NCBI GenBank assembly: GCA_963803705.1
Contig: CAWDNU010000003.1
Coordinates: 327,564-391,563 of the forward strand
Length of the DNA: 64,000 nucleotides
Reading direction: 5' to 3'
DNA from: an uncultured Pseudobdellovibrionaceae bacterium
Lineage (GTDB): Bacteria > Bdellovibrionota > Bdellovibrionia > Bdellovibrionales > UBA1609
In this document: piece by piece, positions 10,551 through 57,052 of the stretch
Layout: each line of letters opens with the position of its first letter
Numbering within the stretch: the first letter of the stretch is position 1
Notes under the pieces: generated by a model
The model's database searches: none
What the model was told of the DNA's origin: nothing
Seen by the model: the letters and a program-made list of their open reading frames with translations, nothing else
Translations under genes and position numbers: made by a program

Positions 10551-10617
10551 TCTAAACGAATAGGTTTAGAGACTTACTAAGCTTTGTTAAGAGTACTGCA
10601 ATTTATAGAGGGGACCT

Positions 10618-11082: not shown

Positions 11083-11115
11083 ATAAATTTTAAATAAATT
11101 CTCGGAGTTTTAAAA

Positions 11116-11613: not shown

Positions 11614-11626
11614 TTAGAGGGGAGTT

Positions 11627-14865: not shown

Positions 14866-14867
14866 AA

Positions 14868-17425: not shown

Positions 17426-17450
17426 GCGTAGTCTATAATAAGGAGAATTT

Positions 17451-19717: not shown

Positions 19718-19729
19718 GAGTAAATAAAA

Positions 19730-21887: not shown

Positions 21888-22304
21888 GTTTTGTGATATC
21901 CTATGGTTAAGAACTTATCTTATAGTATAGAGTAACCTCTACACTATTTTAAAATTAATAAACTTAAGTGCTTATCGGAATTTACGAATCTTTAGTAAAG
22001 TTACCGTATATGATGATCTGGCCTATAGACTAGCTAAATAAGGCCAAAATAGTTTTTGAATCCCATCTATTTAATTAGTAAGACTCGTCTAGGTTTTGAT
22101 AAATAGAATTTTTAACTAAGTAAATGCTTTGTACTGCTGTTCCGGATTTAGACGTAATCCCCCATAGACCGAGTAGTTCCAGTTCGTCCATTAGAAGCTA
22201 GGCACTTGATAGGTGTTTAAAATTTCCGAATAGCAAAACAATCAAGATAACTCCTTACTTAAGCTTGAAGGAGGACTTATTTTTACCACTTAGGAAATAA
22301 AAAA

Positions 22305-22381
<77 letters not shown>

Positions 22382-22473
22382 CCAGGAAGGTCAAATTTAG
22401 GCTTTTCAAACCTCAAAGTCAATAGTAGTTTAGACCTTTAAAGTCTTGTAATAATTAAGCTCAAAAGTGGTTC

Positions 22474-23202
22474 ATGACAAAAAAATCAATTAAAAATTTC
22501 AATTTTAAAGAAGGTCAGCTCTTAAACAGTAAGTACAGAATACTTTCTAGATTAGGAAAGGGTTGGGAAGGCGAAGTTTACGCCATTGAAGAGATAAATA
22601 CAAAAATAGTAAGAGCCGCCAAATTTTTTTACTCAGCAAGAAACGCTAAAAATAAAACTTTGCTTGGCTATGCAAAAAAATTAAATAATTTAAACGATGT
22701 TACGATTATCATTAAATACATTACCCAAGAGGAAATGGAGTTTAAGAAGCAGTCGATATTATTTCTTGTCTCTGAATATATTGAAGCGACTAGTCTAGAG
22801 GATTATATTAATAGCACTAAGAGAAAAGCTGTGCCTATTTTTGAGGCTTCCCATATCTTTTACCAGCTAGTCAAAGGTGTAGAGCAAATACATCTAAAGG
22901 GCGAATTTCATGGAGATCTTCATACGGGTAATGTTTTACTTAGGCAAAAAGGTCTAGCATTTGAGTTAAAGCTTATAGACCTTTTTTTGTGGAAGGGTAA
23001 CAAGCGCGAGTTTCAAAGAGCAGATATTGTGGAATTGATTCGCATCTTTTACGAGATACTAGGTGGTAAAAAAAATTACAGTAAACTTCCCGGGTCGTTT
23101 AAAAATATAATTTGTGGAAAAAGAAATGATTTAATTTTAAAAAAATTCCCGAAAATTTCAAATTTAAGTGTCACGTTAGAAAATCTAAGTTGGACAGACT
23201 AA
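22474..23202 (+). CDS. atypical small protein kinase-like protein (Kdo/RIO/lipopolysaccharide-kinase-like catalytic loop)
   Basis: The Gly-loop is GKGWEGEVY, the Lys motif is AAKFF, the catalytic loop is HGDLHTGNVLL, and it is followed by LIDLF. Length is only 242 aa. Confidence 0.55.
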   Translation: MTKKSIKNFNFKEGQLLNSKYRILSRLGKGWEGEVYAIEEINTKIVRAAKFFYSARNAKNKTLLGYAKKLNNLNDVTIIIKYITQEEMEFKKQSILFLVSEYIEATSLEDYINSTKRKAVPIFEASHIFYQLVKGVEQIHLKGEFHGDLHTGNVLLRQKGLAFELKLIDLFLWKGNKREFQRADIVELIRIFYEILGGKKNYSKLPGSFKNIICGKRNDLILKKFPKISNLSVTLENLSWTD

Positions 23203-23304: not shown

Positions 23305-23766
23305 TTATTGCCAAATTTTAAGCTCCCTTAGAGTAGGGAGCCTTTTCGAAAGTAAAACCTCTGTGCTTTTAGTTATTTTGCCGTTGTTAAAAGATATTAA
23401 GGTCGCTTCTTGATCAAAAATTTTTAATCTATTTATTAGTCTAAATCCTGGGTCCAAATAAAATTCATCTAGAATATTCTTTGGGATCCCATACTTTTCT
23501 AACAAATTTTGGGCTCGGGCTATGGGTTTTTTACCCACTACAATTATAAAGTTTTTTGCAGAATTTTTAACTAATTTAGAGATATTATCAAAACAAGATT
23601 TGCAGGATGCATTGACGTATAAAATATTTGCTTTACTGCTTTCGGTTAACAGCACCACTTTATCGGTGTCTTGAATTGACTGCAGCAGAAATGACACTCG
23701 AGCTACAGCTTGGTGTGACCATAAAAGATAAGAAAATAAGATAACTAGAATGTATTTATTTTTCAT
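23305..23766 (-). CDS. secreted CxxC protein, possibly thioredoxin-fold
   Basis: It has a signal peptide (ILFSYLLWSHQAVA) and a CKSC motif following a beta-strand-like ILYVNAS. The fold assignment is a guess. Confidence 0.3.
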   Translation of the reverse strand: MKNKYILVILFSYLLWSHQAVARVSFLLQSIQDTDKVVLLTESSKANILYVNASCKSCFDNISKLVKNSAKNFIIVVGKKPIARAQNLLEKYGIPKNILDEFYLDPGFRLINRLKIFDQEATLISFNNGKITKSTEVLLSKRLPTLRELKIWQ

Positions 23767-23779
23767 AATTAATGATTAC

Positions 23780-24673
23780 CTAGTTACCGTATGTTGGCCT
23801 AAAAATATAGAGTCCATTCTGGAATTCTCCTATAGACATGGGCGAATTTCTTCTGTTGTTCAAAAATTTCAATGTAAACACCTTGGTAACAGTTTTAAAT
23901 GGAGTTGTTCTGTTGTCATTACAAATCAGGCCAGCAGTGATGTCTGCCCTAGGTCCAAGACAATCATAACCGGCCTTAGCGTTAGAGGTAGGATAAATAC
24001 TAGTGGCTGTGACTCTTATCGAATTTAAAATGTTTCCTCTAGAAAACTGAGGCTGATCCAATGTAAAGTCCGATACTCTCTCTATAACCAGATCACCGTC
24101 ATCGGGTGTTAAGACCCCGGTTGCATCAGAGGCACCTAAATCGATTACAATTCTAGAGCCTCTTCTTGTGTTGTCAAAAACTTCATTCTTTCTAACAAAA
24201 AAAACCCCAGTAGGCCTAAATAAGCTTGTTGTTGTTGTGGCAGCCATATTAGAAAGCCTATTTTCCCGCGCAAAAAACATAAGTGTTGCACTAGGCAAGG
24301 CGCCCATAGACGCATCCGTTAGATAATTAAAAACCCTAACATAGCCGGCACCGCCAGTGCCAGTTTGTCGACCGTTTAAGTCCAGATTCGCGGGTGTTGG
24401 CAGCCTTACGTTGACCGCTAGTGAGGCTACATATTTTAAAGTGTACATTAGACGATCTAAATCTTGTTCTGCCTCTGATATCTTAGATTGCTTTAGACCT
24501 ACGACTGCCATATTTACGCTAATGTAAGCACCAGTAAGAAAAATTAATGAGGCAATCGCGCTAGAGATCATCATTTCAATCAATGTAAAACCAGCCGATT
24601 TATACAAGTTGGGACTTGATAGTTGTTTATTTGAAGATTGCTTCGATTTTGTTACAAACTTCACTGTAAACAT
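23780..24673 (-). CDS. alternative model: stand-alone minor-pilin/pseudopilin from internal ATG (MFTVKFVTKSKQSSNKQLSSPNLYKSAG/FTLIEM)
   Basis: The internal ATG at 24673..24671 would give a 28-aa leader before the G/F cleavage motif. No convincing SD precedes it (ttccaaaatttaaaaATG). Confidence 0.3.
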   Translation of the reverse strand: MFTVKFVTKSKQSSNKQLSSPNLYKSAGFTLIEMMISSAIASLIFLTGAYISVNMAVVGLKQSKISEAEQDLDRLMYTLKYVASLAVNVRLPTPANLDLNGRQTGTGGAGYVRVFNYLTDASMGALPSATLMFFARENRLSNMAATTTTSLFRPTGVFFVRKNEVFDNTRRGSRIVIDLGASDATGVLTPDDGDLVIERVSDFTLDQPQFSRGNILNSIRVTATSIYPTSNAKAGYDCLGPRADITAGLICNDNRTTPFKTVTKVFTLKFLNNRRNSPMSIGEFQNGLYIFRPTYGN

Positions 24674-25687
24674 TTTTAAATTTTGGAAAAAGAATTTGAT
24701 ATCTGCAAATATCTCTTTGAAGGGAACCCATAAATCGTATGTATAGGACTGAACTGCTCGGTTTTGATAGTTTGACAGACCAAATTTAAATCTTTCATTT
24801 CTTTTTGGATTGTAAAAGGTGCCAAATATGACATCCCATACAGAAAGCATTACTCCTAAGTTCACATCCCTGTGAACACGATTTCTGCTGTGGTGAGCTT
24901 GGTGCATGTGAGGACTGATAAATATGTAACTTAAAAATTTGCCGTAGTTTAACCTTATATGAGAGTGACGCAGGTTCGAGACAAAGCTTAAGAATACATA
25001 GTTTAGTAGAGCCATCGTGTACTTATAATCCAAATCTTTACCAATATGGAAAGCTGAAGCAAGAAGAACTATACCAGGTGCAAACAAAACTGGTTTTAAA
25101 ATTATCGTATCAACAAAGTATTCAACAGGATGTATACGGTCTTTTGTTAAAGGATTTAAAACAGTTGCTCTGTGATGGGTTGCATGAAATTTCCATAACC
25201 AAGGGACTTTGTGGTAAAAAAGGTGAACTAAGTAACTTGCAAAATCCATGTACAGAAGATTTAGTAAAGCCAGTACATATATTCCATATACGGGATCTAG
25301 ATAAAACACCGGCTCTATACTTTGCAACTGAGCAAGGTAGGTGTATTCGGTAACCCACTGAATGACCTGACGGTGATTTAATAAAAAATAACCAAATATT
25401 ATTGGTTTATATATAAATCTTAGGCTTAAATAGAAAAAATCTTTTTTTAGTTCGAATTTAAAACGAGATGATTTAAGAAAAGATTGAACTCTGTTTAGCG
25501 AGGTTTTTCTTTTTATCATTGAATACGCAAAATATACCAAGGCAATAATGAAAGCTGATAAAATCCAAAATATGTTGAAGGGCTGACTTAAATCAGTCAT
25601 AAAGTTTGAAGTAAACTCGGAAAAAAAGTTTACAAAACCTTTATACAAAAGACTGAATAAGAGTAACATCTCATTAATCATCTTCAT
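23780..25687 (-). CDS. single ORF joining a fatty-acid hydroxylase/sterol-desaturase-family membrane domain (aa 1-~335) to a prepilin-type (class III signal) pilin-like domain (aa ~339-635)
   Basis: The His boxes are HLFYH, HATHH and HMHQAHH. At residue 366/367 there is KSAG/FTLIEMMISSAIASLIFL (G-1, F+1, E+5). No stop codon separates the two modules. Confidence 0.6.
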   Translation of the reverse strand: MKMINEMLLLFSLLYKGFVNFFSEFTSNFMTDLSQPFNIFWILSAFIIALVYFAYSMIKRKTSLNRVQSFLKSSRFKFELKKDFFYLSLRFIYKPIIFGYFLLNHRQVIQWVTEYTYLAQLQSIEPVFYLDPVYGIYVLALLNLLYMDFASYLVHLFYHKVPWLWKFHATHHRATVLNPLTKDRIHPVEYFVDTIILKPVLFAPGIVLLASAFHIGKDLDYKYTMALLNYVFLSFVSNLRHSHIRLNYGKFLSYIFISPHMHQAHHSRNRVHRDVNLGVMLSVWDVIFGTFYNPKRNERFKFGLSNYQNRAVQSYTYDLWVPFKEIFADIKFFFQNLKMFTVKFVTKSKQSSNKQLSSPNLYKSAGFTLIEMMISSAIASLIFLTGAYISVNMAVVGLKQSKISEAEQDLDRLMYTLKYVASLAVNVRLPTPANLDLNGRQTGTGGAGYVRVFNYLTDASMGALPSATLMFFARENRLSNMAATTTTSLFRPTGVFFVRKNEVFDNTRRGSRIVIDLGASDATGVLTPDDGDLVIERVSDFTLDQPQFSRGNILNSIRVTATSIYPTSNAKAGYDCLGPRADITAGLICNDNRTTPFKTVTKVFTLKFLNNRRNSPMSIGEFQNGLYIFRPTYGN

Positions 25688-25787
25688 TGACTTATCCTTT
25701 GATAGGCACTAGCGATACCCGCCATAATCGTGACCCTCAACACCAACGTCACTTCCGTGCTTAGGGCTGTAATTCAATTTGACTCAT

Positions 25788-27215
25788 TTAGTTGCCCATA
25801 CTGGAGCTACTACTGGGAGTACCACCATCATCACCATCAAAGCCTGAACCCATGCCCTGGTCACCGCCGTCACCGTCACTTCCGTCGCCATCGCTAAATG
25901 TTGGCGGTGGCGGGGGGGAGTATACACAGCCAGCAGCTTGAGTTCCCCCACCATTTGCACAATAACCTGGGCCAGTGTAGCTTGCAGGACAACTTGTACA
26001 GCTAGGAAGAGCTACTGCAGGAAATCCGCCTCCTATGGGCGTTCTTGAAATATTGTGTGCAGCATCTACAGCTACTACCTCTATTCGTGGGCTGCATCCA
26101 AGACTAATACCAGAAAAACTTAGGTTAAATCCATTTGGAAGCTCCACAAAACTGTCAGCTGACCTTCCACATAAGGTGACAGTCTTACAGCTTTTCCAAC
26201 CATCGTTAGGCAGGACCGGAGTTCTAATTGGCCCCCCTGGACACAATGGTTTCGTATTAGAAGCAACAGGTGACCCCGAGCTGTCCCTGCAGACTAATGC
26301 GATAGCTTTTTCGGTTTTAAACTCTGGATTAAAGCGTATCTGAACTTCCGGTTCTAGTGTTTGAGTGCAAGTTCCTAAGGGCCCGGTAGAGATGTTTACA
26401 GTAGGGGATAATAAATCGGTGTCTGAAGGGGGGATTTTTGGATAGTTAAAAACTGAACTGGCATCACAATTTGAGTTATTATCGTCACTATCGGTATACG
26501 AAGTATTAACAGTTACAAGAAAACCTAAATTTGCTACGGAATTAAGTTCAGGTAATATATCACCACCCATAAAGTCCGCAGTCTGTGATGAGCTTATATC
26601 AACACCAGCAGGCCTAATGCTTAAAGGAAGCGTTGGACAACTTAAGTTTCCGTTTACCAAATTGATGGCCTGAATTCTAATTTTTGATTGTATGTTTCGA
26701 AGATGGCCCACATCTAGAGTTTCAACCAATTCGGCAGTTCCTACATTATTATAAACTATGCCATCAGGGTTCGTACAAAAATTAGGATCAGAGTTGTACA
26801 AAGAATTTAGTAAAGACATCGATCCAATTAAAGCCTTATGATTACGTAGATAAAGTGTGGCACCGTCCTGACGAAAAAGTTCGGCATTTCCCACGAGCCA
26901 ATCTTGATCATTGCTAATAAAGTTTAACATATTCATAGAAGTTGGCGCTGAACGACTCATAGATCCTTCAGATCCACCGTAGCTTAAAACGTTTACAGAT
27001 TTAACAGCTCCTGTTGATTTAATTTTGTCGACAATGTCTTGTGACCTTTGTAAGCATGCTGCAAAGTGTGAGTTTTTGATCTGAGACATTCTAGTAGAGC
27101 TAAAAACGGTGAAAGATACAGCTACAATCGATAGCAAAGCAATGGCTATTAAAGATTCAACAAGTGAAAATCCAAATTCCTTTGCTCTTGCCCTTTTTTT
27201 GAATTTTATCATCAC
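25788..27215 (-). CDS. large prepilin-type N-terminal cleavage/methylation domain protein (pilin-like, 475 aa)
   Basis: The leader is MMIKFKKRARAKEFG/FSLVESLIAIALLSIVAV (G-1, F+1, E+5). RBS is aggag. The C-terminal region is Cys-rich, followed by PPPPP and a DG-rich acidic tail. Confidence 0.65.
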   Translation of the reverse strand: MMIKFKKRARAKEFGFSLVESLIAIALLSIVAVSFTVFSSTRMSQIKNSHFAACLQRSQDIVDKIKSTGAVKSVNVLSYGGSEGSMSRSAPTSMNMLNFISNDQDWLVGNAELFRQDGATLYLRNHKALIGSMSLLNSLYNSDPNFCTNPDGIVYNNVGTAELVETLDVGHLRNIQSKIRIQAINLVNGNLSCPTLPLSIRPAGVDISSSQTADFMGGDILPELNSVANLGFLVTVNTSYTDSDDNNSNCDASSVFNYPKIPPSDTDLLSPTVNISTGPLGTCTQTLEPEVQIRFNPEFKTEKAIALVCRDSSGSPVASNTKPLCPGGPIRTPVLPNDGWKSCKTVTLCGRSADSFVELPNGFNLSFSGISLGCSPRIEVVAVDAAHNISRTPIGGGFPAVALPSCTSCPASYTGPGYCANGGGTQAAGCVYSPPPPPTFSDGDGSDGDGGDQGMGSGFDGDDGGTPSSSSSMGN

Positions 27216-27274
27216 AAAGAACTCCTAGCTCTGGTTATATAATTTGTTAAAATAGAGTTAAAATCTCTTTCCCA

Positions 27275-27306
27275 TATCTTACCCTGTATCTTACCCTGTA
27301 TCTTAA
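27275..27306. repeat. 12-nt tandem repeat (atcttaccctgt x2 plus a partial copy) upstream of the pilin-like gene
   Basis: Copies lie at 27275-27286 and 27287-27298, with a partial copy at 27299-27306. Confidence 0.8.
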
Positions 27307-27356
27307 CAATAACTTATCGGTTACAGAAATTATGTCCTGAAGTCCGGGTATCTTTG

Positions 27357-27372
27357 TGCTTCTCTGTTACCA
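27357..27372 (-). promoter_or_regulatory. sigma-54-like -24/-12 element candidate (TGGTAA-N5-AAGCA)
   Basis: The minus-strand sequence is tggtaacagagaagca, with correct GG-N10-GC spacing, about 140 nt upstream of the pilin-like start. The flanking consensus is only weakly matched. Confidence 0.3.
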
Positions 27373-27453
27373 ACTCAGACTGTATTAGAGGGATTTTTTT
27401 TTATAAGATTTACTTTAGTTATCTGACTGAAACATTTAGGCAACACTTAGCAC

Positions 27454-28743
27454 CTATGGTTCTAAAATAAGAAGTGGATTCGAACTATTGGGTGACAGCA
27501 GTAAGAAATTGTTTCCCACGCCAACCTGATTGGAAATAGAGCTTTTGAGATCTACAGATTCAACAAGACTTAGGTTTTCGAACCTTAAAAAGCAGAATTT
27601 ATCTTTTGAACATCCTGCTGCAATAAATTTTTTACCCTTGTATTCTAGAATTACTGGACTAGCTTGCCTAGACTCCCTATTCATCTTTATTTTGAAATAA
27701 GCCAGGCGCTTACCAGTGCTCAAATTAATCTTATGAATCCCGTTAGCGGCGTTTACAAAACCAACACCTAGGTCTGGATCAATTGCAACGCTGCTCTGAT
27801 TAAATTTTGGAACCAAATATGTCCATAAAACCCTGCCATCAAATTTACTTAGGCAATAAATTTTACCATCCCACGAAGAAATATATATTTTATCGTCCCA
27901 TACACTTGGGGTTGATTTGACAGGAGCACCAAAGTCTTGGGTCCAAACAACTCTACCTGTGCTTTTAGAAATAGCTCTAAAGGTGTTGTTATTATCGCCG
28001 ATGAAGATGTTGCTCTTATCAGCTGCCGGCGTAGAGTGGCTTTGGTTTCCCAAGGGCTCGCTAGTCCAGACCACTTCATTTGTTATCAAATTTAGTTTTA
28101 CAACGTAGCCATCTGGCCGAACGGTTTCGAAGTTCAAATAAAGGTGATTTCCTTCTAGAAGAGGGGTAGCCCCAAAAGTATTTCCGAATTGGGCCATCCA
28201 AATAACCTTTTTTGTGCTTAGATCTAAAAAGTAAAACCGCCCTGTGTAGTCACCTATAAAAGCAACGTCTTGGATTATTATTGGCGTGCTGTGAAACCCA
28301 AAGCCCTTGTTGAATAAGCTTAAAGTCCAATATAGAATTTTATTTTTATACACTTCAACAATCCCTTGGTCGCCTGCCACAATGGTATAAGGGTCTAAAT
28401 GCATTGGCGTAGACTTACTAGCGCCATGACCTGAGTAGTTAATATTTGTTTCACCTATTGAATTCAATTTTAGGTCTATTGGATCGAATTTTATTTTAAA
28501 GTATCCTTGCCTAAGGGCTCCCCCGCGGTACTGCGCTATTTTATTTGATTTAAGAATTGCCTTCAGCCTTGATGGTTTAATTTCATTGACATGAAATATA
28601 TTAGGTTTAAAGAACTTATGCCGGTTGTAATAGGTAGACCGAATTTCTAGTTGTGTGGGATTATAGATAAAAACAACTACGAATACTAAAGACAGGGCAA
28701 CCAGCAAATAGAAAAAAAGTAATTTAAATTTGTTTACAAACAT
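27454..28743 (-). CDS. membrane-anchored PQQ-like beta-propeller repeat protein (BamB-family fold)
   Basis: Repeats include GRVVWTQDFGAPVKSTPSVWDDKIYISSWDGKIYCLSKFDGRVLWTY. The start was moved to the ATG at 28743 (MFVNKFKLLFFYLLVALSL TM), giving a 20-nt overlap with the upstream gene instead of 149 nt. Confidence 0.7.
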   Translation of the reverse strand: MFVNKFKLLFFYLLVALSLVFVVVFIYNPTQLEIRSTYYNRHKFFKPNIFHVNEIKPSRLKAILKSNKIAQYRGGALRQGYFKIKFDPIDLKLNSIGETNINYSGHGASKSTPMHLDPYTIVAGDQGIVEVYKNKILYWTLSLFNKGFGFHSTPIIIQDVAFIGDYTGRFYFLDLSTKKVIWMAQFGNTFGATPLLEGNHLYLNFETVRPDGYVVKLNLITNEVVWTSEPLGNQSHSTPAADKSNIFIGDNNNTFRAISKSTGRVVWTQDFGAPVKSTPSVWDDKIYISSWDGKIYCLSKFDGRVLWTYLVPKFNQSSVAIDPDLGVGFVNAANGIHKINLSTGKRLAYFKIKMNRESRQASPVILEYKGKKFIAAGCSKDKFCFLRFENLSLVESVDLKSSISNQVGVGNNFLLLSPNSSNPLLILEP

Positions 28744-29899
28744 CTTTATAATTCCGTATTTCGGTATATTTGGTTTGAGTGGTTCGTTTAGATTCCAGTA
28801 GAAATAAAAACTTTTTTTCAGGGTTTCTTTCACATAACCGACGTAAAAAAGAATCAAAGACAACAGGGTCACATCTAACCCTAAGAGACCTAGCCAACCC
28901 AGGGATATCTACAGAGACTACGTCCGAATTAGATTTTATTTCATATAAAGTGTTTCTACACACTAACCTAGCGTCAAGCATATTCAGTGACAAGTATCTT
29001 ACGTATCCGTCCATGGCTGCATCAAATGGTTGCAATCTGACAGTCAAATTCCAAACAAGCAACAGCACTATGAACAGTGATGAGACTGTCTGTGGTACGT
29101 TCTTAAAATCAAAAAAATTCATAGATGGTTTAAGACTCTCGTTTTTAAGGTAAGAAGCAATTTCAATATAAAAAAGTGGAAATAATAAACCTGTCATTAT
29201 AAGCGGGTAATACATTCCTACCACTAATATTGAGTACAAATGAAAAAGAAAGAGCTGCAGTAAAGTAAGCCTTCTAAGAAAAGCGCTTTTAGCCATCAAG
29301 CCCCAAATTAAGACTAACTCTAATACTGGAACATAAGCTAAGCTTAGGACTTGAAAAGGCCCCTTAAATAAATATTGACTATATGTTGTTAACGAAGCCC
29401 CTGACAGCCATTCAAGATTTAGCTTTAAAAGACCAGCAAAGAAGTACTGCAGGCACAAGACAAACCGGTATTTACCCAAAGAGTATCTGTCTAGTAGGGT
29501 GATTATTATCATTGTTAAATGCATGGTGTGATAATTACCCATCATATTATAACGAGACAGTAAAATGGTGGCTTTTAAAAAGAATAAGAAAACAAATAGT
29601 CTATAAAAAACTTTCTTTTTACCTATCAGAATTAGAAAGATAGTTGCTACACTTATGATTAAATAGCTAAAAAAAATGACTTTTATGTAAAGCAAATCAC
29701 TAAAAACTAGTTTGTAACAATTTTTAAATACTGGATAGCAATAAATTTGATGGTTTTCTAGACTGTAATTTAACCATACTGATCTTAAAATCCAAAAGTA
29801 AGCAGTAACTAAATGTGAAAAAGTTAATCCTAGCAGGATAGAGCTGTAATAGTTGTATTTGATCTTACTTAAAATTCTTTTAGTAATTAGATAAACCAT
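28724..29899 (-). CDS. polytopic membrane protein, HTTM / vitamin-K-dependent-carboxylase-like domain candidate
   Basis: There are about 8 TM segments. The motif QYFFAGLLKLNLEWLSG resembles the HTTM signature (aromatic-x-AG-x-x-K-L-N-x-D/E-W). A soluble C-terminal domain of about 100 aa follows. Not verified by HMM. Confidence 0.45.
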   Translation of the reverse strand: MVYLITKRILSKIKYNYYSSILLGLTFSHLVTAYFWILRSVWLNYSLENHQIYCYPVFKNCYKLVFSDLLYIKVIFFSYLIISVATIFLILIGKKKVFYRLFVFLFFLKATILLSRYNMMGNYHTMHLTMIIITLLDRYSLGKYRFVLCLQYFFAGLLKLNLEWLSGASLTTYSQYLFKGPFQVLSLAYVPVLELVLIWGLMAKSAFLRRLTLLQLFLFHLYSILVVGMYYPLIMTGLLFPLFYIEIASYLKNESLKPSMNFFDFKNVPQTVSSLFIVLLLVWNLTVRLQPFDAAMDGYVRYLSLNMLDARLVCRNTLYEIKSNSDVVSVDIPGLARSLRVRCDPVVFDSFLRRLCERNPEKKFLFLLESKRTTQTKYTEIRNYKDVCKQI

Positions 29900-30353
29900 A
29901 TTTAACCGAATTTTTGAAAGTTGTGTTTTTTATTTTGCATTTGTTTATATTCGAAAAACTTAGATCTGAGTTAATAAACTTTACGTTTGTTAATTCGCAT
30001 TCTTTAAAAACTGTTCCATTTATCCTTGCATTTAAAAAAGTAGTGTCCTTAACTTTAAACGATTCAACATGCATGCCCTGCATATTAAGACCTACTATTG
30101 TGCTGTTCCGTATATCAAGGTTTGACCCACGTTTGTGATTAAAATACAAAATTTTAAGATTCGCATTTTCAAGCTTAGTTTCTCTTTTTAAAACTTTACC
30201 TTTCTCAAACCAAGAGTTTGGAAAAAGTATGACATCCTTAAAATTATTTTCTTCTGTTGCAAAAAGACTTATCGAGCTAAAAAGCATGATAAGAAAAATT
30301 GAGCTAACCCATTTCATACATACAATGCTAAGGGCAGGGTTAATTTGAGGCAA
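29880..30353 (-). CDS. secreted pentapeptide-repeat protein
   Basis: Pentapeptide repeats are NSTIVGLNMQGMHVESFKVKDTTFLNARINGTVFKECELTNVKFINSDLSFSNINKCKIKNTTF. The signal peptide is MKWVSSIFLIMLFSSISLFA, so the start may be the ATG at 30317. Confidence 0.65.
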   Translation of the reverse strand: MPQINPALSIVCMKWVSSIFLIMLFSSISLFATEENNFKDVILFPNSWFEKGKVLKRETKLENANLKILYFNHKRGSNLDIRNSTIVGLNMQGMHVESFKVKDTTFLNARINGTVFKECELTNVKFINSDLSFSNINKCKIKNTTFKNSVKYGLSNY

Positions 30354-30406
30354 CCAGTTTATGGTCTTTTGATTCTCTATAACTTAGATTTAAGGTGCAA
30401 GATATT

Positions 30407-31849
30407 TTACCATCTACAGTCCAGTAGGTTAGTCTGGTCCGGAATGTAACTGTAAGAGTATAACTTATAAAACCACCACGGCTTTCGTGTACCTAGATGG
30501 TTCCTTATATTATTTTGGTCTAGGTGAATTATATGATTATCTTCAACAAATTTAATTTCGAAATTTTCACCGGGGCGATTTTGTTCAAAGCTACGAAGCG
30601 CTACGAAAAGTCCTGACTTGCTCATCCAGTCGTTTTTCTTTCGACCGGCCATTAAAAACGACCTTGGTTTAACTGATTTGATCTGAATAAGCTTTTTATC
30701 ATGATCAAATAAGTTAAATTTTTTCATAAAGAAGTGGTTGTTATAGGGCCCTACAATTTTCAAGTTTGAAAACATGGTAAAGTTTCCAGAGGCTTTAAAT
30801 CCATAGTAAGGCATCATTGCGTAAACGCATAAAAGCAAGATTTGAAATGCTAACATCAGATCTAGTCTAATGAACCTATAACCAATTAAATCACTAACGG
30901 CCGAATCTGTGCCGCTATTGTATAGAAAATATGACAAAGCCAATATCAAAATCAAGCCTTGTAGAGTTTGAAGTTCGGTAGTGACTTCTAAAAATACGAA
31001 TCGACCAATTAAACATAAGGGTATAACGAAAATAGATGCTGAAAAATAAACTACAGAATTTTTGAACCACAACCCTGTGTTTTGCTTAAAGCCAGGCACA
31101 AACAGCAATAGGATTGCAAAAGCTAAAGAAGAGAAATCTGAAAAACCTCCTAGCGCTAGATAAGAATGGAGGAAGAACAAAAAATATAGACCATAAATTC
31201 TAGTTGATTTAAAAATTAGTAGTATTGGGCTTACTACTTCAATAATTCCCACCATATTAGGTGAGGTGTGGCTGATGATCCACGGAAGGTCAGATGTCTG
31301 TATTGATATAAAAAATCTTTTTAGCAATTTAACGTGGTACCAATTTGCGCAAGATTTAATAGGATCGTAGAAATCAAAGTTCAGCTTATGAAGAGCTGCC
31401 ATAATGTATACAGCGATCATGGCGCACAAAAGATAAATCCTGTAATTAATTAGATTGAGTCTAAATTTACCTCTTTTTAAAAAATTTATTATATAAATAC
31501 TAATAAATATAAAAGTTAAAAATGTACTTAGGGTAAAGTGGTTGGCACCTCTTGGCCATTCGTAAATGTAAATAGGTAGCATAGTTATAAGAAATATCGC
31601 AAAGAGCTGATTGATTCTAATAAGCCAATTAGAAAAACCTTTCAGATGGCTTCGACTTAAAGATTTTTTTGCACCTATTAGTAATCCTAAAAAAAAAATT
31701 AAGAATGCAAGCGTTAAGATCGCAGCTTCTGTGTGCGCTAGATACCTAAAGTTATGATAAACTAAAAAAGATAAATATAATAATATAAAACCAACATCAA
31801 AAAGTAAACTTTTAAGACCTTGATAAGAGTGCTTACTTTTTAAATTCAT
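30407..31849 (-). CDS. polytopic membrane protein, second HTTM-like candidate
   Basis: There are more than 10 TM segments. Motifs are AALHKLNFDFYDP and GNFTMFSNLK. Its architecture parallels 28724..29899 (a TM bundle plus a soluble C-terminal tail). Confidence 0.35.
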   Translation of the reverse strand: MNLKSKHSYQGLKSLLFDVGFILLYLSFLVYHNFRYLAHTEAAILTLAFLIFFLGLLIGAKKSLSRSHLKGFSNWLIRINQLFAIFLITMLPIYIYEWPRGANHFTLSTFLTFIFISIYIINFLKRGKFRLNLINYRIYLLCAMIAVYIMAALHKLNFDFYDPIKSCANWYHVKLLKRFFISIQTSDLPWIISHTSPNMVGIIEVVSPILLIFKSTRIYGLYFLFFLHSYLALGGFSDFSSLAFAILLLFVPGFKQNTGLWFKNSVVYFSASIFVIPLCLIGRFVFLEVTTELQTLQGLILILALSYFLYNSGTDSAVSDLIGYRFIRLDLMLAFQILLLCVYAMMPYYGFKASGNFTMFSNLKIVGPYNNHFFMKKFNLFDHDKKLIQIKSVKPRSFLMAGRKKNDWMSKSGLFVALRSFEQNRPGENFEIKFVEDNHIIHLDQNNIRNHLGTRKPWWFYKLYSYSYIPDQTNLLDCRW

Positions 31850-32613
31850 TTAGCTTGATTCAAATTCCAATTATAATTCATGTATCTAATTTTAATTTTT
31901 CTGGCTTCGGAGTTTTTACTTTTGGGCGAAAATTTATTAATCACTTTAAGAACACCATTACCCCATTTTTCGAAATCATCTTTGTACCAGTCGAAAATTT
32001 TTGAAACCGTATAAACGTTGTTTTTTGAATTGACTTGGTTTTTAGTTTTGTCGTTTAGCCACAACTTCATCTGTTGATCAAGCTGATCATCCAGCTTAGA
32101 ACCTAGATAGGGTTCAAATCTTAGGCTGGGGCAAGATATCGATGCACAGTTTACCGCGGCGTGAATTCTGTAGTCTTTGTATTTGGGACGGATCCATTTA
32201 TGTTCGATAGTATCTAAATTTTTTATTTGACCATCTAGCAAACTAAAAAAATTTTGTTTCCATGCGCTTTTAAAAAAAGTGCCTATCTCTTTAATACTTT
32301 TTAAAGGATAGTTATCTAGGATTAATTTTACAGTTAGAGCGTTATAAGCATTAATTAAAAATGCAAGTTGCTGGTTCTTGTTTAATTCACTAAACTCATT
32401 TCCTTTTAACTGCTGAATCGAGCTTATATACTTTACAAATTCGTGGTTCTTGTTCTCATTTACATCTTTTTTAAGGTCTTCGTATTTAAATAAGGCTTCA
32501 TCGGATAAATAATTTGATAGAACTGAGCCCCAAAGCGTGTGCTCGTGATCAAAAGCAACAGCATTCGAGCCTAATAGTAATAGTGCGGTAAAAACCAAAT
32601 GTTTAAATTTCAC
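31846..32613 (-). CDS. secreted DUF547-domain protein
   Basis: It has a signal peptide. The DUF547 signature is AFLINAYNALTVKLIL ... RIHAAVNCASISCPSLR. Confidence 0.7.
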   Translation of the reverse strand: MKFKHLVFTALLLLGSNAVAFDHEHTLWGSVLSNYLSDEALFKYEDLKKDVNENKNHEFVKYISSIQQLKGNEFSELNKNQQLAFLINAYNALTVKLILDNYPLKSIKEIGTFFKSAWKQNFFSLLDGQIKNLDTIEHKWIRPKYKDYRIHAAVNCASISCPSLRFEPYLGSKLDDQLDQQMKLWLNDKTKNQVNSKNNVYTVSKIFDWYKDDFEKWGNGVLKVINKFSPKSKNSEARKIKIRYMNYNWNLNQAK

Positions 32614-32827
32614 TTAAAACTCCTTATAACCAAACATAGCTAAGTATTTATGAAAGAAACTTCTTTTATAAATAATAGGTCAGCTAACAATAAATTTCTA
32701 GTTTTAAGAACACGATTTACTTTTAGTATGTATAGTAGCAAAAGACCAAAACCAAGTCCTTGACTACTTTTCTAAATATCATTGATTTCCTTGCAAATTA
32801 TTTTGTCTGGTACATGGCTGTACTTAT

Positions 32828-33592
32828 TTAGTAGTGTCTTACCGCAAATGTTTGAGTCATTCTGCTGCGACCGGAGCAACCAGTTCCACCATTAAGGCAA
32901 AAAGTGACACTAAAACACTCTGTGTGACTTCGAGTGCAATTTATAAAGTTAGAACCTACCTGTGTCGGAGCAGAATCAGTTGGCAGTTCAATTCTGGCTC
33001 CTGCTTCTGTAGTTGGCATCACAACAGTTCCCATTGCGTCCACCACAGGCGGTATATAAGTGGCAGCCTCTGTGTATTCACGCACAGGCTGCATGGCGCT
33101 GAAGGGGTCGTTAACGTTGCCACTTCCGCCATTATTTCCACCATTGCTTCCACCAATACTTCCACTATTGCTTCCACTACTGCTATAACTGGCATGCGCT
33201 GTTTTAATCATTTGGTTTATAGCGAACCTGTGTATAGATGGAGTGTTAAAGTTTTGAACTATGCTTTGCGAGCTAGAAATACAGATGTCTCTGCCTCGGG
33301 TCTGAGAGGAGTTAAAGCAATTGTCCGCATCTAAATTAACCCAGCATAGTTTTACCGGTGCAACTGCCGCTACATTTTGTAGCTCACGGCTTCCCACCGG
33401 GCAGCCAGAAAGCTGCTGGCCTAAATCGTAAGCAAGCTTCACAGTAGAACTTAAAGATTCTACCATTTCAATTTTTTGATACATCTCTTTGTAAGCTGAA
33501 CTTGTTTGTACCTTCTTCATATGAATATCGTTGATACTACTTATAATAAAACCATTTAAAGCTATTATCATGGCTACGAATGCGATTTGCAT
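32828..33592 (-). CDS. Cys-rich secreted or membrane-anchored protein with a pilin-like N-terminal hydrophobic helix but no G/F cleavage motif
   Basis: RBS is aagggag. The N-terminus is MQIAFVAMIIALNGFIISS. There is a Gly/Ser/Asn linker (SSSGSNSGSIGGSNGGNNGGSGN). The C-terminus is Cys-rich (NCTRSHTECFSVTFCLNGGTGCSG). Confidence 0.4.
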   Translation of the reverse strand: MQIAFVAMIIALNGFIISSINDIHMKKVQTSSAYKEMYQKIEMVESLSSTVKLAYDLGQQLSGCPVGSRELQNVAAVAPVKLCWVNLDADNCFNSSQTRGRDICISSSQSIVQNFNTPSIHRFAINQMIKTAHASYSSSGSNSGSIGGSNGGNNGGSGNVNDPFSAMQPVREYTEAATYIPPVVDAMGTVVMPTTEAGARIELPTDSAPTQVGSNFINCTRSHTECFSVTFCLNGGTGCSGRSRMTQTFAVRHY

Positions 33593-53292: not shown

Positions 53293-53383
53293 TTTCTACA
53301 AGTGACAATTTTCGCCTGTGTCATTGAAAATATGACAGGCTGAGATGGCACAATACTTGATACATAGTCCTTGGAGGGTTTGT

Positions 53384-55720: not shown

Positions 55721-57052
55721 GTGGCTATGCATTTAAAATCATGTATGCGCTTAGTGGCGCTATGCTTTTTGTACTTAATTGCTTCTGGAGCTAATGCCCA
55801 AGGCTGCAAAAATGTTTCGGAAATAATATGGTCAGACGAGCTGTTATATTACTATTTTAAAACACCGGGCATAAAAGTTATCCCATTTCCAAGCAGCCTT
55901 TGTGACTTTAAAAGCCAAATTATTTTCAAAAACATCAAAGGCAAAACTGTCGGAAAGTTTGAAATCAACACTAGGGAAAGACATCGGTACGATGATCTAA
56001 GAGCAAACTCAAAAAGAACTCCTGAGATTGTTAAGCGTTACCACAATTCATTAATTAAAGAGATCAAACCCACTGTCCTTGCCGATATAATATTTAAAGC
56101 ATTAGGTTTTAATTTTTTGGATGACTTCAATAATAAAATCCAATTTGTCAGTGGGCGGTTTACCGGTAATCGTAGAAAATTAACTTGGAACCCCTACTCT
56201 ATGCCTAAAAAACACTGGAACGCAGTAAATATTACTTATAAACAGCTAATACAGTTCTACGCTAAACCTAACGTGAAATTTATGTATCTGGAAGATGATG
56301 AGTCCTACTTGTTTCCTAAGGTACAAAAAGTGGATCATAACCTTTCAAATATTCTGAAATTTGAAATTCCTGACTATATGTTTCTTAATTTTATGACTAA
56401 ATCAAGATCAGATGAGGAAGTCGTTTTGTTTTCTAGCCATAAGAATGCTATTCGAGCTTATAATTACTTGACCCTTTTGTCTTTTAAAAACAAAAGAAAA
56501 GTCTTTTGGTTCTCTGATGCGGATTCAAAGTGGATAAAGTTTAAATTCAAAAACCAAGCTGATCGATTTAAAGACATAGAAATAATTTCTGGTAAAGCAG
56601 TCATTGACCTTATAAATTCTGAAAAGAAATTTGAAATTGTGGATATAGGTCGTAAGGACTACTTCAAACAGTTAAACTTCAAAAAGACAAGACCAACATC
56701 TATTTTAGACCCAGAACCGGCTAGTTACAAAAGGTATATTATAGAAACTAGAGGTAAAAAGAGTTTCTACAGTTTACCGCTTAGGCGGCAGCAATTTGGC
56801 GATTATATTCTTGTAGATCTTTATAAAATTGAAAAGTCCGTTCCTATTATCCTTGTGGGCAATCACATGTTGGACGCTGACAAAACACTACGTATTCACA
56901 AGCTAATTCGCCGTGAAGGTCACACTAAAATTTACATCTTAATGGAGCGGGTTGATCAAGTAAAACAACAATTGATCGATAACGATATGGATCCAACCAA
57001 ATACTTTAATGAAAGTAAGCCTACGCATTTAACCGTTCCAAACTTCAGGTAA
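55721..57052 (+). CDS. secreted protein, unknown function
   Basis: The signal peptide is LVALCFLYLIASGANAQG. The protein is Lys-rich and 443 aa long. No family was recognised. Confidence 0.45.
   Translation: MAMHLKSCMRLVALCFLYLIASGANAQGCKNVSEIIWSDELLYYYFKTPGIKVIPFPSSLCDFKSQIIFKNIKGKTVGKFEINTRERHRYDDLRANSKRTPEIVKRYHNSLIKEIKPTVLADIIFKALGFNFLDDFNNKIQFVSGRFTGNRRKLTWNPYSMPKKHWNAVNITYKQLIQFYAKPNVKFMYLEDDESYLFPKVQKVDHNLSNILKFEIPDYMFLNFMTKSRSDEEVVLFSSHKNAIRAYNYLTLLSFKNKRKVFWFSDADSKWIKFKFKNQADRFKDIEIISGKAVIDLINSEKKFEIVDIGRKDYFKQLNFKKTRPTSILDPEPASYKRYIIETRGKKSFYSLPLRRQQFGDYILVDLYKIEKSVPIILVGNHMLDADKTLRIHKLIRREGHTKIYILMERVDQVKQQLIDNDMDPTKYFNESKPTHLTVPNFR

What the first reader, a model, noticed from the sequence alone, without database searches (positions are those of the whole stretch)
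23305..33592. Same-strand gene train linking HTTM-like membrane proteins, redox-type accessory proteins and pilin-like or Cys-rich secreted proteins, with no pilus machinery
Seen in sequence:
- Ten consecutive minus-strand ORFs are tightly coupled. There is a 4-nt overlap at 31846-31849, 20-nt overlaps at 29880-29899 and 28724-28743, and a 13-nt gap at 23767-23779.
- In transcription order they encode: a Cys-rich protein with a pilin-like N-terminal helix; DUF547 (AFLINAYNAL...RIHAAVNCASISCPSLR); a polytopic membrane protein with AALHKLNFDF; a periplasmic pentapeptide-repeat protein; a second polytopic protein with QYFFAGLLKLNLEWLSG; a TM-anchored PQQ propeller; a 475-aa class-III-signal protein; a di-iron hydroxylase fused to another class-III-signal domain; and a secreted CxxC protein.
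- The window contains no PilB/PilT ATPase, PilC platform, secretin or prepilin peptidase.

Established knowledge: the HTTM family includes the vertebrate vitamin-K-dependent gamma-carboxylase and B. subtilis SdpB, both of which act on exported proteins. DUF547 occurs fused to glutaredoxin-like domains.

Inference: this may be an undescribed envelope system that oxidatively or otherwise modifies pilin-like or Cys-rich substrates, with DUF547 and the CxxC protein as redox partners.
Basis: partly seen in the sequence, partly recalled or inferred. Interest (0 to 1): 0.72.

Follow-up and report, generated by a model that had tools for sequence, protein, structure and literature searches.

The report
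GGCX-like membrane enzymes with pilin-like partners
A predatory-bacterium (Bdellovibrionota) gene cluster pairs two membrane proteins with the fold and catalytic motif of the human vitamin-K carboxylase with cysteine-rich, pilin-like secreted proteins that end in Asp-Gly repeat tails, which points to an undescribed protein-maturation system.

Summary
The train is real, with nine (not ten) minus-strand ORFs; the stated overlaps and motifs are all present. DUF547, pentapeptide, BamB-type propeller, two prepilin (N_methyl) signals and FA_hydroxylase are confirmed by Pfam.

Neither polytopic protein hits Pfam HTTM directly. Both are nevertheless HTTM/GGCX-superfamily:
- AlphaFold models match only human GGCX (E 1e-6 and 3e-4).
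- A family profile hits GGCX by sequence (8e-6), aligning the catalytic Lys218 and Asn159/His160.
- The two families are homologous to each other (hhalign 94%).

Comparative genomics redraws the system. The conserved core is pentapeptide + HTTM-B + propeller, and B is fused to the propeller in at least seven genomes. In about half of long loci this core sits next to non-homologous sets of Cys-rich pilin-like proteins. One protein of each set typically ends in a Pro-rich/(Asp-Gly)n tail. Thioredoxin-like proteins and a di-iron hydroxylase (fused to a pilin here) recur beside them.

DUF547 is a local passenger. The absence of pilus machinery is true but uninformative.

Best reading: a quinol-dependent, GGCX-like maturation system for exported pilin-like proteins. 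The chemistry is unproven; Asp-tail modification and thiol redox are the two candidates. I found no description in the searchable literature.

The parts
32828..33592 (-). g1: 254-aa exported protein with 8 Cys. It has an N-terminal hydrophobic, pilin-alpha1-like anchor but no G|FxxxE motif.
   Evidence: sequence; 8 Cys. No Pfam hit. Five homologues were found; in three they lie directly before the 475-aa-type pilin gene, and a fourth is cut by the contig end (L001/L008/L009, L002). In this window the gene has moved to the head of the train.
31846..32613 (-). g2: secreted DUF547 protein (255 aa, CX4C at C156/C161). Probably a local passenger, although it overlaps polytopic A by 4 nt.
   Evidence: Pfam PF04784, E 8.6e-23. 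More than 1676 homologues. No HTTM neighbour in three other genomes. In a different operon in L001.
30407..31849 (-). g3: polytopic A (480 aa), a divergent HTTM/GGCX-superfamily membrane protein. Invariant N103-H104 and K155 align to GGCX N159-H160 and K218.
   Evidence: top 13 fold hits are all GGCX, E 2.6e-4; 1902 representatives; 14 of 46 relatives hit Pfam HTTM and 6 hit MauE; family profile versus GGCX chains, E 8e-6.
29880..30353 (-). g4: periplasmic pentapeptide-repeat protein. The likely start is M13 at 30317, followed by a signal peptide.
   Evidence: Pfam Pentapeptide_4 1.5e-9. A homologue lies immediately upstream of polytopic B in 48 of 78 loci that have enough upstream flank.
28724..29899 (-). 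g5: polytopic B (391 aa), a GGCX-fold membrane protein with the motif YFFAGLLKLNLEW (GGCX: YFIAGVKKLDADW) and a Cys-containing C-terminal periplasmic domain.
   Evidence: AF2 pLDDT 88. Foldseek top 12 hits are all GGCX, E 1e-6, TM 0.63. Two relatives hit Pfam HTTM. hhalign versus the A family: 94%. Invariant K159, W164, H220.
27454..28743 (-). g6: membrane-anchored BamB/PQQ_2-type beta-propeller (429 aa from the ATG at 28743).
   Evidence: Pfam PQQ_2 9.6e-25. Immediately downstream of B in 43 of 68 loci. Fused to B in L022, L023, L032, L035, L050, L076 and P0033; the one fusion examined (L035) has no TM helix in the linker.
27266..27305 (.). Three tandem 12-nt units in the 238-nt gap before g7. 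This may be a regulator site or internal promoter region.
   Evidence: Function not tested.
25788..27215 (-). g7: 475-aa prepilin-type protein (EFG|FSLVE) with 14 Cys and a C-terminal PPPPP...SDGDGSDGDGGD...FDGDDGG tail (DNA about 25821-25895).
   Evidence: N_methyl 2.9e-5. Cys count. It is the only ORF of 80 aa or more in the window with a DG tail. Orthologues carry the same kind of tail.
23780..25687 (-). g8: di-iron FA_hydroxylase domain (His boxes HLFYH, HATHH, HQAHH) fused in frame to a prepilin-type protein (KSAG|FTLIE, residues 363-384; DNA 24536-24601).
   Evidence: The fusion is conserved in L001/L008/L009 (647-649 aa), and L001 has no Met in the linker. The two parts are separate genes in B. 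bacteriovorus. No Shine-Dalgarno sequence precedes the internal ATG at 24673.
23305..23766 (-). g9: secreted 153-aa CxxC protein (C55, C58), weakly thioredoxin/TlpA-like.
   Evidence: No Pfam hit. hhalign versus the Redoxin-type family c30: 63%, E 7e-5, with CxxC aligned. Orthologues follow the hydroxylase gene in L001/L008/L009 and L002.
55721..57052 (+). Displaced cluster member c13 (443 aa). In relatives it sits between polytopic A and the pentapeptide gene. The B. bacteriovorus orthologue has a rhodanese domain.
   Evidence: tblastn E 1.5e-78. No Pfam or NCBIfam hit for the window copy.

Best explanation
The region joins two units that are linked repeatedly in Bdellovibrionota.

Unit 1 is an envelope enzyme module. 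It comprises a periplasmic pentapeptide-repeat protein, an HTTM/GGCX-fold membrane protein (B) and a membrane-anchored beta-propeller that works as B's periplasmic partner; the two are one polypeptide in several genomes. A second HTTM-superfamily paralogue (A) is also present.

Unit 2 is a client set. It comprises three Cys-rich type-IV-pilin-like exported proteins, one of which ends in a Pro-rich/(Asp-Gly)n tail. With them are a membrane di-iron hydroxylase, translationally fused to one pilin here, and a thioredoxin-like CxxC protein.

Proposed mechanism (inferred, not shown):
- B, and perhaps A, uses a membrane quinol and O2 as GGCX does. It retains the equivalents of the Lys218 base, Trp223 and the Asn159/His160 pair. 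It modifies the exported clients on the periplasmic face.
- The most likely target is the Asp residues of the (DG)n tail, by carboxylation or a related oxidation. This would resemble GGCX on Glu clusters and MloH on Asp.
- The propeller and pentapeptide proteins hold the client.
- The thioredoxin-like protein handles the clients' many disulfides.
- The pilin-like proteins are cleaved by a prepilin peptidase and assembled by machinery encoded elsewhere.
- DUF547 is not part of the system.
For: Fold and active site:
- B, pLDDT 88; its top 12 PDB fold hits are all GGCX, E 1e-6, TM 0.63.
- A; its top 13 hits are all GGCX.
- the A-family profile hits GGCX at E 8e-6. It aligns NH with N159/H160 and HK with K217/K218, and the K217A/K218A chain scores worse.
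- the A and B families are homologous (94%).
- K159, W164 and H220 are invariant in B.
- Roles of N159, H160 and W223: PMC12647623.

Module conservation:
- 80 loci.
- pentapeptide upstream in 48/78, propeller downstream in 43/68.
- at least seven B-propeller fusions; no TM helix in the linker of the one checked (L035).

Link to clients:
- pilin-like sets lie next to the trio in B. bacteriovorus, L006, L003 and others, with different flanks and orders.
- pilin-like genes lie within 8 kb in 22 of 44 long loci.
- hydroxylase-pilin fusion versus split genes.

DG tails:
- 24 of 70 pilin-like versus 9 of 1200 other ORFs.
- 23 of 47 long loci have one within about 6 kb of B, in non-homologous families.
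- this includes a disintegrin-repeat protein directly upstream of B in a Myxococcota MAG.

Thioredoxin-like neighbours.

Precedent for Asp chemistry: MloH, and the DGDG-directed SmaO.
Against: - No experiment bears on this.
- The window proteins themselves do not reach any Pfam/NCBIfam HTTM threshold.
- The model of A is only moderate (pLDDT 76, TM 0.37).
- Pilin-like or DG-tailed neighbours are found in only about half of the long loci. A large Pseudobdellovibrionaceae group has the trio without them within 10 kb.
- Outside Bdellovibrionota the trio dissolves and B's neighbours are heterogeneous.
- The counts are not corrected for shared ancestry.
- In this window a 238-nt gap with a tandem repeat separates the propeller from the pilin genes, so they may be separate transcripts.
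- DG tails could simply be Ca-binding or linker segments that are never modified.
- Quinone type and availability were not examined.
Confidence: 0.45

Rival explanations
1. Thiol-redox version. The HTTM/DoxX-like membrane proteins act as quinone-linked oxidoreductases. They work with the periplasmic thioredoxin-like protein (as MauE works with MauD, or M. tuberculosis DoxX with the rhodanese SseA). Their job is to form or isomerise the many disulfides of the Cys-rich pilin-like proteins. No residue other than Cys is modified.
For: - 6 of 46 relatives of A hit Pfam MauE and 1 hits DoxX.
- Redoxin/TlpA-type genes recur in the clusters.
- g9 aligns its CxxC with theirs.
- The clients carry 8 and 14 Cys, and 12-18 in other loci.
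- The c13 orthologue in B. bacteriovorus has a rhodanese domain.
Against: - B keeps the GGCX-type K/W/N-H constellation and a GGCX-like periplasmic domain, not a minimal DoxX fold.
- This reading does not explain the DG tails.
- The general Dsb system would normally suffice for disulfides.
- g9's thioredoxin assignment is weak (63%).
- The window's c13 copy shows no rhodanese signal.
Confidence: 0.22
2. Structural version. The three pilin-like proteins are a minor-pilin/tip (priming) complex of a type IV filament. The polytopic proteins, propeller and pentapeptide protein are a non-enzymatic membrane platform or chaperone that holds them before assembly. The propeller would play a PilY1-like role.
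For: - Sets of three to four pilin-like genes, one canonical and others lacking Glu5, resemble minor-pilin sets.
- PilY1 has a beta-propeller (my own knowledge; PMC8833165 is listed).
- LMF1, an HTTM-clan relative, is a chaperone rather than a proven enzyme (my own knowledge).
Against: - The propeller is membrane-anchored or fused to B, lacks a PilY1-like N-terminal domain and hits BamB-type PQQ_2, with no PilY1/PilC family among its Pfam hits.
- The catalytic-type residues of B are invariant across 28 sequences down to 28% identity.
- A di-iron hydroxylase with intact His boxes and thioredoxin-like proteins point to chemistry.
Confidence: 0.15
3. No system. The genes are neighbours by descent and compaction only, and belong to several unrelated functions.
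For: - The closest relative also shares the flanking genes (SRP54, ABC transporter, rhodanese, kinase), so part of the synteny is plain ancestry.
- DUF547 proved to be a passenger.
- The promoter/terminator scan is uninformative.
Against: - Adjacency survives deep divergence (30-38% identity) with entirely different flanks and gene orders.
- There are two independent kinds of gene fusion: B-propeller and hydroxylase-pilin.
- Non-homologous DG-tailed proteins recur next to B.
Confidence: 0.1

Closest known systems
[quoted passage not shown]
   Same: - Same overall fold for both polytopic proteins.
- The motif around the catalytic Lys is shared: GGCX AGVKKLDADW, B AGLLKLNLEW, A AALHKLNFDF.
- The Asn-His pair that binds the substrate carboxylate is shared.
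- The extra-cytoplasmic C-terminal domain is shared.
- Clients are exported proteins with clustered acidic residues.
   Different: - Sequence identity is 12-15%, and there is no direct Pfam hit.
- B is half the size of GGCX.
- Its partners (propeller, pentapeptide protein) have no GGCX counterpart.
- The candidate target is an Asp-Gly tail at the C-terminus, not an N-terminal Glu-rich domain guided by a propeptide.
- Activity and cofactor are untested.
MloH, the Streptomyces VKDC-like carboxylase of malonomycin biosynthesis (Law et al. 2018, as cited in PMC12186529, PMC12647623 and bioRxiv 10.64898/2026.08.19.745780)
   Same: It is a bacterial HTTM-type enzyme that carboxylates an Asp residue. 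It is the only bacterial member with a demonstrated reaction that turned up in the searches.
   Different: MloH acts on a small PKS-NRPS intermediate in a cytoplasmic or membrane secondary-metabolite pathway. It has a fused DUF5819-like region. No pilin-like clients, propeller or pentapeptide protein are involved. It was not compared by sequence here.
B. subtilis SdpB (with SdpA), needed to mature the exported toxin SdpC
   Same: It is an HTTM-family membrane protein encoded next to the exported protein it matures. The 302-aa HTTM protein in the B. bacteriovorus version of this cluster hits the SdpB family model at E 1.6e-10, below its cutoff.
   Different: The window proteins do not hit the SdpB model. 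There is no SdpA homologue. The clients are large pilin-like proteins, not a small toxin.
MauE/MauD and DoxX-type membrane oxidoreductase pairs
   Same: A small polytopic protein of the same clan is paired with a periplasmic thioredoxin-like protein and serves a Cys-rich exported client. Relatives of A hit MauE and DoxX.
   Different: A and B are much larger, carry GGCX-like C-terminal domains and retain the GGCX Lys motif.
Type IVa minor-pilin + PilY1 priming sets (Pseudomonas, Myxococcus)
   Same: They are clusters of three to four pilin-like genes with a beta-propeller protein, encoded away from the assembly ATPases.
   Different: No PilY1/PilC, PilV/W/X or FimU family match reaches its cutoff. 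The propeller is anchored to, or fused with, an HTTM enzyme. Hydroxylase and thioredoxin genes are present.
SmaO/SmaX Asp-to-aminomalonate cascade on DGDG motifs in RiPPs (PMC12186529)
   Same: Asp residues in Gly-rich 'DG' repeats are the enzymatic targets there, and the same sequence feature marks the clients here.
   Different: The enzymes are different: a soluble Fe/2OG hydroxylase plus SmaX, against membrane HTTM and di-iron enzymes here. The substrates there are small peptides.

Membership tests
HTTM / GGCX superfamily (Pfam PF05090) | Significant match of the protein itself to the family HMM | tested here: not met
   There was no Pfam or NCBIfam hit at E<=0.1 for either polytopic protein. 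Only relatives hit: 2 of 28 for B (best 9e-4) and 14 of 46 for A (best 2.6e-8).
HTTM / GGCX superfamily (Pfam PF05090) | Profile-level sequence homology to GGCX | tested here: met
   The A-family profile matches GGCX chains at E 8e-6 over about 190 residues. The B family links to the A family by hhalign at 94%, E 1.4e-7. The B profile alone found no GGCX chain.
HTTM / GGCX superfamily (Pfam PF05090) | GGCX-type fold | tested here: met
   For B, the top 12 PDB hits are all GGCX (E 1e-6, TM 0.58-0.63). For A, the top 13 are all GGCX (E 2.6e-4, TM 0.37, moderate model).
HTTM / GGCX superfamily (Pfam PF05090) | Catalytic Lys (GGCX K218) with the neighbouring Trp223 and the Asn159/His160 pair | tested here: met
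   In A, N103-H104 and K155 are invariant and aligned to N159-H160 and K218, with F160 in place of W223. In B, K159 and W164 are invariant, and N122/H124 are nearly invariant with register uncertain by 1-2 residues.
HTTM / GGCX superfamily (Pfam PF05090) | Quinol/O2-dependent epoxidase or carboxylase activity | not testable with these tools
   This needs biochemistry.
DUF547 (PF04784) | HMM match above the gathering score | tested here: met
   81.1 bits against a cutoff of 27, E 8.6e-23.
Type IV pilin-like (class III signal) proteins | G|F-x-x-x-E cleavage/methylation motif followed by a hydrophobic helix | tested here: met
   g7 and the C-terminal half of g8 match N_methyl / TIGR02532 above cutoff. 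g1 has only the hydrophobic helix and lacks the motif.
Type IV pilin-like (class III signal) proteins | Assembly machinery (ATPase, platform, secretin, prepilin peptidase) in the neighbourhood | tested here: not met
   None was found among the window ORFs scanned against Pfam. The rest of the genome was not available.
FA_hydroxylase (membrane di-iron oxygenases, PF04116) | HMM match plus the His-box motifs | tested here: met
   E 1.8e-22. HLFYH, HATHH and HQAHH are read from the translation. The substrate is unknown, and the OlsE model hits only far below its cutoff.
Thioredoxin-fold (TlpA/Redoxin) | HMM match with CxxC at the active-site position | tested here: inconclusive
   g9 has no Pfam hit. 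hhalign to the Redoxin-type c30 family gives 63%, E 7e-5, with CxxC aligned to WCxxC.
PQQ-dependent dehydrogenases | Match to PF01011 / TIGR PQQ-enzyme models above cutoff | tested here: not met
   PF01011 scores 23.9 bits against a cutoff of 26.7, and the TIGR models fall far below cutoff. Only the BamB-type PQQ_2 propeller passes. It is a propeller, not a demonstrated quinoprotein.
Minor pilin + PilY1 sets | PilY1/PilC-type propeller protein and FimU/PilV/W/X family matches | tested here: not met
   No such family reaches its cutoff. GspH and PilV models hit only the N-terminal helix.

The most novel reading that the evidence does not exclude
B (with its propeller and pentapeptide partners) is a bacterial protein carboxylase or oxidase. 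It would processively modify the Asp residues of Pro-rich/(Asp-Gly)n C-terminal tails on exported pilin-like and other Cys-rich proteins. That would create a Gla-like, Ca2+-binding tag on filament-tip or surface proteins of predatory bacteria. If so, it is a prokaryotic counterpart of vitamin-K-dependent Gla-domain formation, with the DG tail serving as both recognition signal and substrate.
Probability: 0.17. Interest if true: 0.9.

Novelty: new variant of a known kind. Interest (0 to 1): 0.64.

Why it matters
Bacterial HTTM/GGCX homologues are numerous; the profile of A alone reaches 1902 cluster representatives. Yet, as far as the searches showed, only MloH has a demonstrated reaction.

This work gives a defined, conserved module: HTTM-B, a propeller and a pentapeptide protein. 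It also gives candidate protein clients that carry a simple recognisable tag, the (DG)n tail.

That turns the question 'what do bacterial GGCX-like proteins do?' into a mass-spectrometry and knockout experiment in a cultivable organism, B. bacteriovorus, which has the same cluster.

If the clients are pilus-tip proteins, the system may bear on prey attachment or invasion. The enzyme-pilin fusion, in which a roughly 360-residue hydroxylase takes the place of a prepilin leader, is also unusual for type IV pilin biology.

Tried and rejected
- Direct Pfam/NCBIfam scans of the two polytopic proteins, g1 and g9 gave nothing.
- BLASTP of A against B gave nothing; only profiles link them.
- PDB sequence searches with the small A profile (8 sequences) and the B profile found no GGCX chain. 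The deeper A profile did.
- DUF547 as a conserved partner was rejected. It has other neighbours in three other genomes (Fe-S/FAD reductases, VTT + Pyr_redox_2), no fused architectures among the 120 best hits, and sits in a different operon in L001.
- Contexts of distant A-family members (L004, L090, L091) show no shared neighbours.
- Neighbours of B outside Bdellovibrionota are heterogeneous: MetH-like, dienelactone hydrolase and unknowns. The exception is a disintegrin-repeat, DG-tailed protein in one Myxococcota MAG.
- The promoter/terminator scan was at or below shuffled expectation and says nothing about operon structure.
- Rfam found only a tRNA at 22308-22381.
- c13 as a rhodanese holds for the B. 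bacteriovorus orthologue by Pfam, but only weakly by NCBIfam and not at all for the window copy. The DoxX-SseA analogy is therefore weak.
- No small ORF or precursor-like peptide of note lies in the intergenic gaps.
- Literature searches for HTTM+DUF547, HTTM domain, Bdellovibrio + vitamin K-dependent, Bdellovibrio + minor pilin and Bdellovibrio + pentapeptide found no description of this cluster.

Full report
**1. The observation**

Between 33592 and 23305 there are nine consecutive minus-strand ORFs. The finding says ten but lists nine, and no credible extra ORF lies in the gaps.

The stated junctions are correct:
- 4-nt overlap at 31846-31849.
- 20-nt overlap at 29880-29899.
- 20-nt overlap at 28724-28743, if the propeller starts at the ATG at 28743. 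That start gives the 429 aa seen in orthologues.
- 13-nt gap at 23767-23779.

Three larger gaps remain, of 214, 238 and 100 nt. The 238-nt gap before the 475-aa gene holds three tandem 12-nt units. One continuous operon is therefore not established. The promoter/terminator scan was at chance level.

**2. Domain content**

Pfam and NCBIfam confirm:
- DUF547 (E 8.6e-23).
- Pentapeptide repeats (1.5e-9).
- A BamB-type PQQ_2 propeller (9.6e-25). True PQQ-enzyme models fall below their cutoffs.
- Prepilin N_methyl motifs in the 475-aa protein and at residues 363-384 of the 635-aa protein.
- FA_hydroxylase (1.8e-22) with intact His boxes.

The two polytopic proteins, the 254-aa protein and the CxxC protein have no direct hit at E<=0.1. 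None of the window ORFs scanned (those of 120 aa or more outside the train, bar four flanking ORFs) matches a pilus ATPase, platform, secretin or prepilin peptidase family.

**3. The polytopic proteins are HTTM/GGCX-superfamily**

*B (391 aa)*
- It has 28 homologues, and two of them hit Pfam HTTM weakly.
- Its AlphaFold model is confident (pLDDT 88).
- Its 12 best PDB matches are all human GGCX (E 1e-6, TM 0.58-0.63); the next hit is at E 0.66.

*A (480 aa)*
- It has only seven close homologues, but their profile reaches 1902 cluster representatives.
- Of 46 sampled relatives, 14 hit Pfam HTTM, 6 hit MauE and 1 hits DoxX.
- Its model (pLDDT 76) again matches only GGCX (13 top hits, E 2.6e-4, TM 0.37).

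*Residue-level correspondence*
- The deeper A profile hits GGCX chains by sequence (E 8e-6). A's invariant N103-H104 aligns to GGCX N159-H160, and H154-K155 to K217-K218. The K217A/K218A mutant chain scores worse.
- The A and B families are homologous over this core (hhalign 94%, E 1.4e-7).
- B's invariant K159 and W164 lie in AGLLKLNLEW, against GGCX AGVKKLDADW.
- In the GGCX structures, N159 and H160 bind the substrate Glu carboxylate. N159A, H160A and W223A impair carboxylation (PMC12647623).

**4. Comparative genomics**

A pattern scan of one genome per species with the B family returned 80 loci. Most are Bdellovibrionota. A few are Myxococcota, Rokubacteria/Methylomirabilota, Gemmatimonadota, Planctomycetales, Binatia and Acidobacteriota.

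*The core trio*
- A pentapeptide gene lies immediately upstream of B in 48 of 78 loci with enough flank.
- A PQQ_2 propeller gene lies immediately downstream in 43 of 68.
- In at least seven cases B and the propeller are one protein (P0033, L022, L023, L032, L035, L050, L076). In L035, the fusion examined, the linker has no TM helix, so the propeller joins B's periplasmic C-terminal domain.
- Outside Bdellovibrionota the trio is not seen and the neighbours are heterogeneous.

*The client genes*
- Pilin-like genes lie within 8 kb of B in 22 of 44 long loci.
- They belong to several unrelated families and occur in several gene orders.
- In B. bacteriovorus (L002) an HTTM (SdpB-like)-hydroxylase-DUF1513-pentapeptide-B-propeller operon converges on a second operon. 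That operon runs pilin-g1-like-g7-like-hydroxylase-CxxC-rhodanese-domain protein, and the flanks are quite different from the window's.
- In L006 a DUF1513-Redoxin-pilin-like set-pentapeptide-B-propeller train is co-directional.
- The hydroxylase-pilin fusion of the window recurs in L001/L008/L009 with a variable linker that lacks a Met in L001. In B. bacteriovorus the two parts are separate genes. No Shine-Dalgarno sequence precedes the internal ATG here.

*Differences from the closest relatives (L001/L007-L009)*
- g1 sits between the propeller and g7 there.
- A 443-aa gene (c13) sits between A and the pentapeptide gene.
- A third HTTM-like gene (c20; hhalign 92% versus the A family) plus a small gene lie on the opposite strand between DUF547 and A.
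- In the window g1 has moved to the head of the train and c20 is absent. c13 is 22 kb away, at 55721-57052.

**5. DUF547**

DUF547 is widespread and well conserved (more than 1676 hits at about 50% identity). In three other genomes its neighbours are Fe-S/FAD reductases or a VTT + pyridine-nucleotide-disulfide oxidoreductase protein, never an HTTM protein. In L001 it closes a different operon. I treat it as a passenger that came to abut A after a local rearrangement, despite the 4-nt overlap.

**6.

In most client sets one protein ends in a Pro-rich stretch followed by an (Asp-Gly)n tail. In the window this is g7: PPPPPTFSDGDGSDGDGGDQGMGSGFDGDDGG.
- Such tails occur in 24 of 70 pilin-like ORFs and 9 of 1200 other ORFs in the fetched loci (Fisher p 2e-25, not corrected for relatedness).
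- Most of the nine 'others' also lie beside B.
- 23 of 47 long loci have a DG-tailed protein within about 6 kb of B.
- The tails sit on non-homologous proteins: the pil475, c2 and c14 families, a 650-aa pentapeptide-containing protein in B. bacteriovorus, and a 768-aa protein with seven disintegrin repeats directly upstream of B in a Myxococcota MAG.
- In the 64-kb window g7 is the only ORF with such a tail.
- The clients are Cys-rich, with even counts here (8, 14 and 2).
- Thioredoxin-type genes recur beside them (Redoxin in L006, the c30 family). g9 aligns weakly to that family with its CxxC in register (63%).

**7. Interpretation**

*Shown*
- Two GGCX-fold proteins retain the GGCX catalytic motif.
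- B is physically coupled to a periplasmic propeller, as the gene fusions show.
- This module is linked recurrently, across rearrangements, to Cys-rich pilin-like proteins, to DG-tailed proteins, to a di-iron hydroxylase and to thioredoxin-like proteins.

*Inferred*
- B (and perhaps A) is a quinol/O2-dependent enzyme acting on the periplasmic face.
- The pilin-like proteins are its clients.
- The DG tail is the recognition element and the substrate.

*Precedents*
- GGCX acts processively on clustered Glu.
- MloH, a bacterial HTTM enzyme, carboxylates Asp.
- DGDG Asp residues are enzymatic targets in RiPPs (PMC12186529).

*Rivals*
- The main rival is a thiol-redox role of MauE/DoxX type. That fits the thioredoxin-like genes and the Cys-rich clients but not the DG tails.
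- A purely structural minor-pilin platform is less likely, given the fusions, the invariant catalytic-type residues and the deep conservation with changed flanks.
- Mere neighbourhood by descent is less likely for the same reasons.

**8. Novelty**

Searches of the held literature found no description of this cluster, nor of HTTM proteins in Bdellovibrio. I rate it a new variant of a known kind. The superfamily (HTTM/GGCX) is known, but the partner set, the probable client class and the candidate substrate tag are undescribed. The main weaknesses are these:
- There are no experimental data.
- Client association is seen in only about half of the loci.
- The statistics are not phylogenetically independent.
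- Operon structure in the window is uncertain.

Noticed in passing
window 54536-57052 (+): The displaced cluster gene c13 (55721-57052) lies just after an aspartyl/asparaginyl beta-hydroxylase (LpxO-like) gene at 54536-55504 (Pfam E 1.5e-45). An Asp hydroxylase beside a member of a cluster whose clients have Asp-Gly tails may be a coincidence, or it may be part of the same chemistry.
   Followed up: partly
window 27266-27305: Three tandem 12-nt units (TAAGATACAGGG on the minus strand) lie about 55-90 nt upstream of the g7 start. They sit in the 238-nt gap where relatives carry the g1 gene. This may be a regulator binding site.
   Followed up: partly
window 48658-54301 (+): A 1544-aa ORF and a 318-aa ORF have no Pfam match. 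They lie directly upstream of the Asp hydroxylase and c13 genes.
   Followed up: no
window 9846-20821 (+): A co-directional run of ExbB, two ExbD genes, a 1004-aa TPR protein and a TonB_C-like protein. Three unknown ORFs (473, 225 and 530 aa) and a VWA-like lipoprotein follow. It resembles a motor-driven envelope complex (gliding or Bat/aerotolerance-like).
   Followed up: no
window 21159-23202: A PP2C-type phosphatase gene (minus strand) and a short Ser/Thr kinase-like gene (plus strand) flank a tRNA at 22308-22381, next to the cluster. A kinase gene also flanks the cluster in relative L001.
   Followed up: no
L001 8701-9916; L007-L009 equivalents: Relatives carry a third HTTM-like gene (c20, 272 aa; hhalign 92% versus the A family) and a 134-138-aa partner on the opposite strand, between DUF547 and polytopic A. 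Both are missing from the window.
   Followed up: partly
L020, L027, L039, L043, L044 (Bdellovibrio genomes): Bdellovibrio genomes carry several copies of the pentapeptide-B module. At one locus a trio is followed by a 605-655-aa protein combining a prepilin-like motif, pentapeptide repeats and a C-terminal CDGDGDGF tail. A second pentapeptide-B pair comes after that.
   Followed up: partly
window 58028-58975 (-): A second PQQ_2 propeller (315 aa), probably the housekeeping BamB, lies in the same window. It should not be confused with the cluster's propeller.
   Followed up: no
L088 9013-11065: Near a DUF547 gene in another Bdellovibrionota MAG lies an MbnB/HvfC-type (DUF692-DUF2063) RiPP maturase with an 88-aa ORF. 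Two relatives of polytopic A hit the HvfX Cu-binding-RiPP maturation model. This hints that DoxX/HTTM-clan proteins serve several peptide-maturation systems.
   Followed up: no
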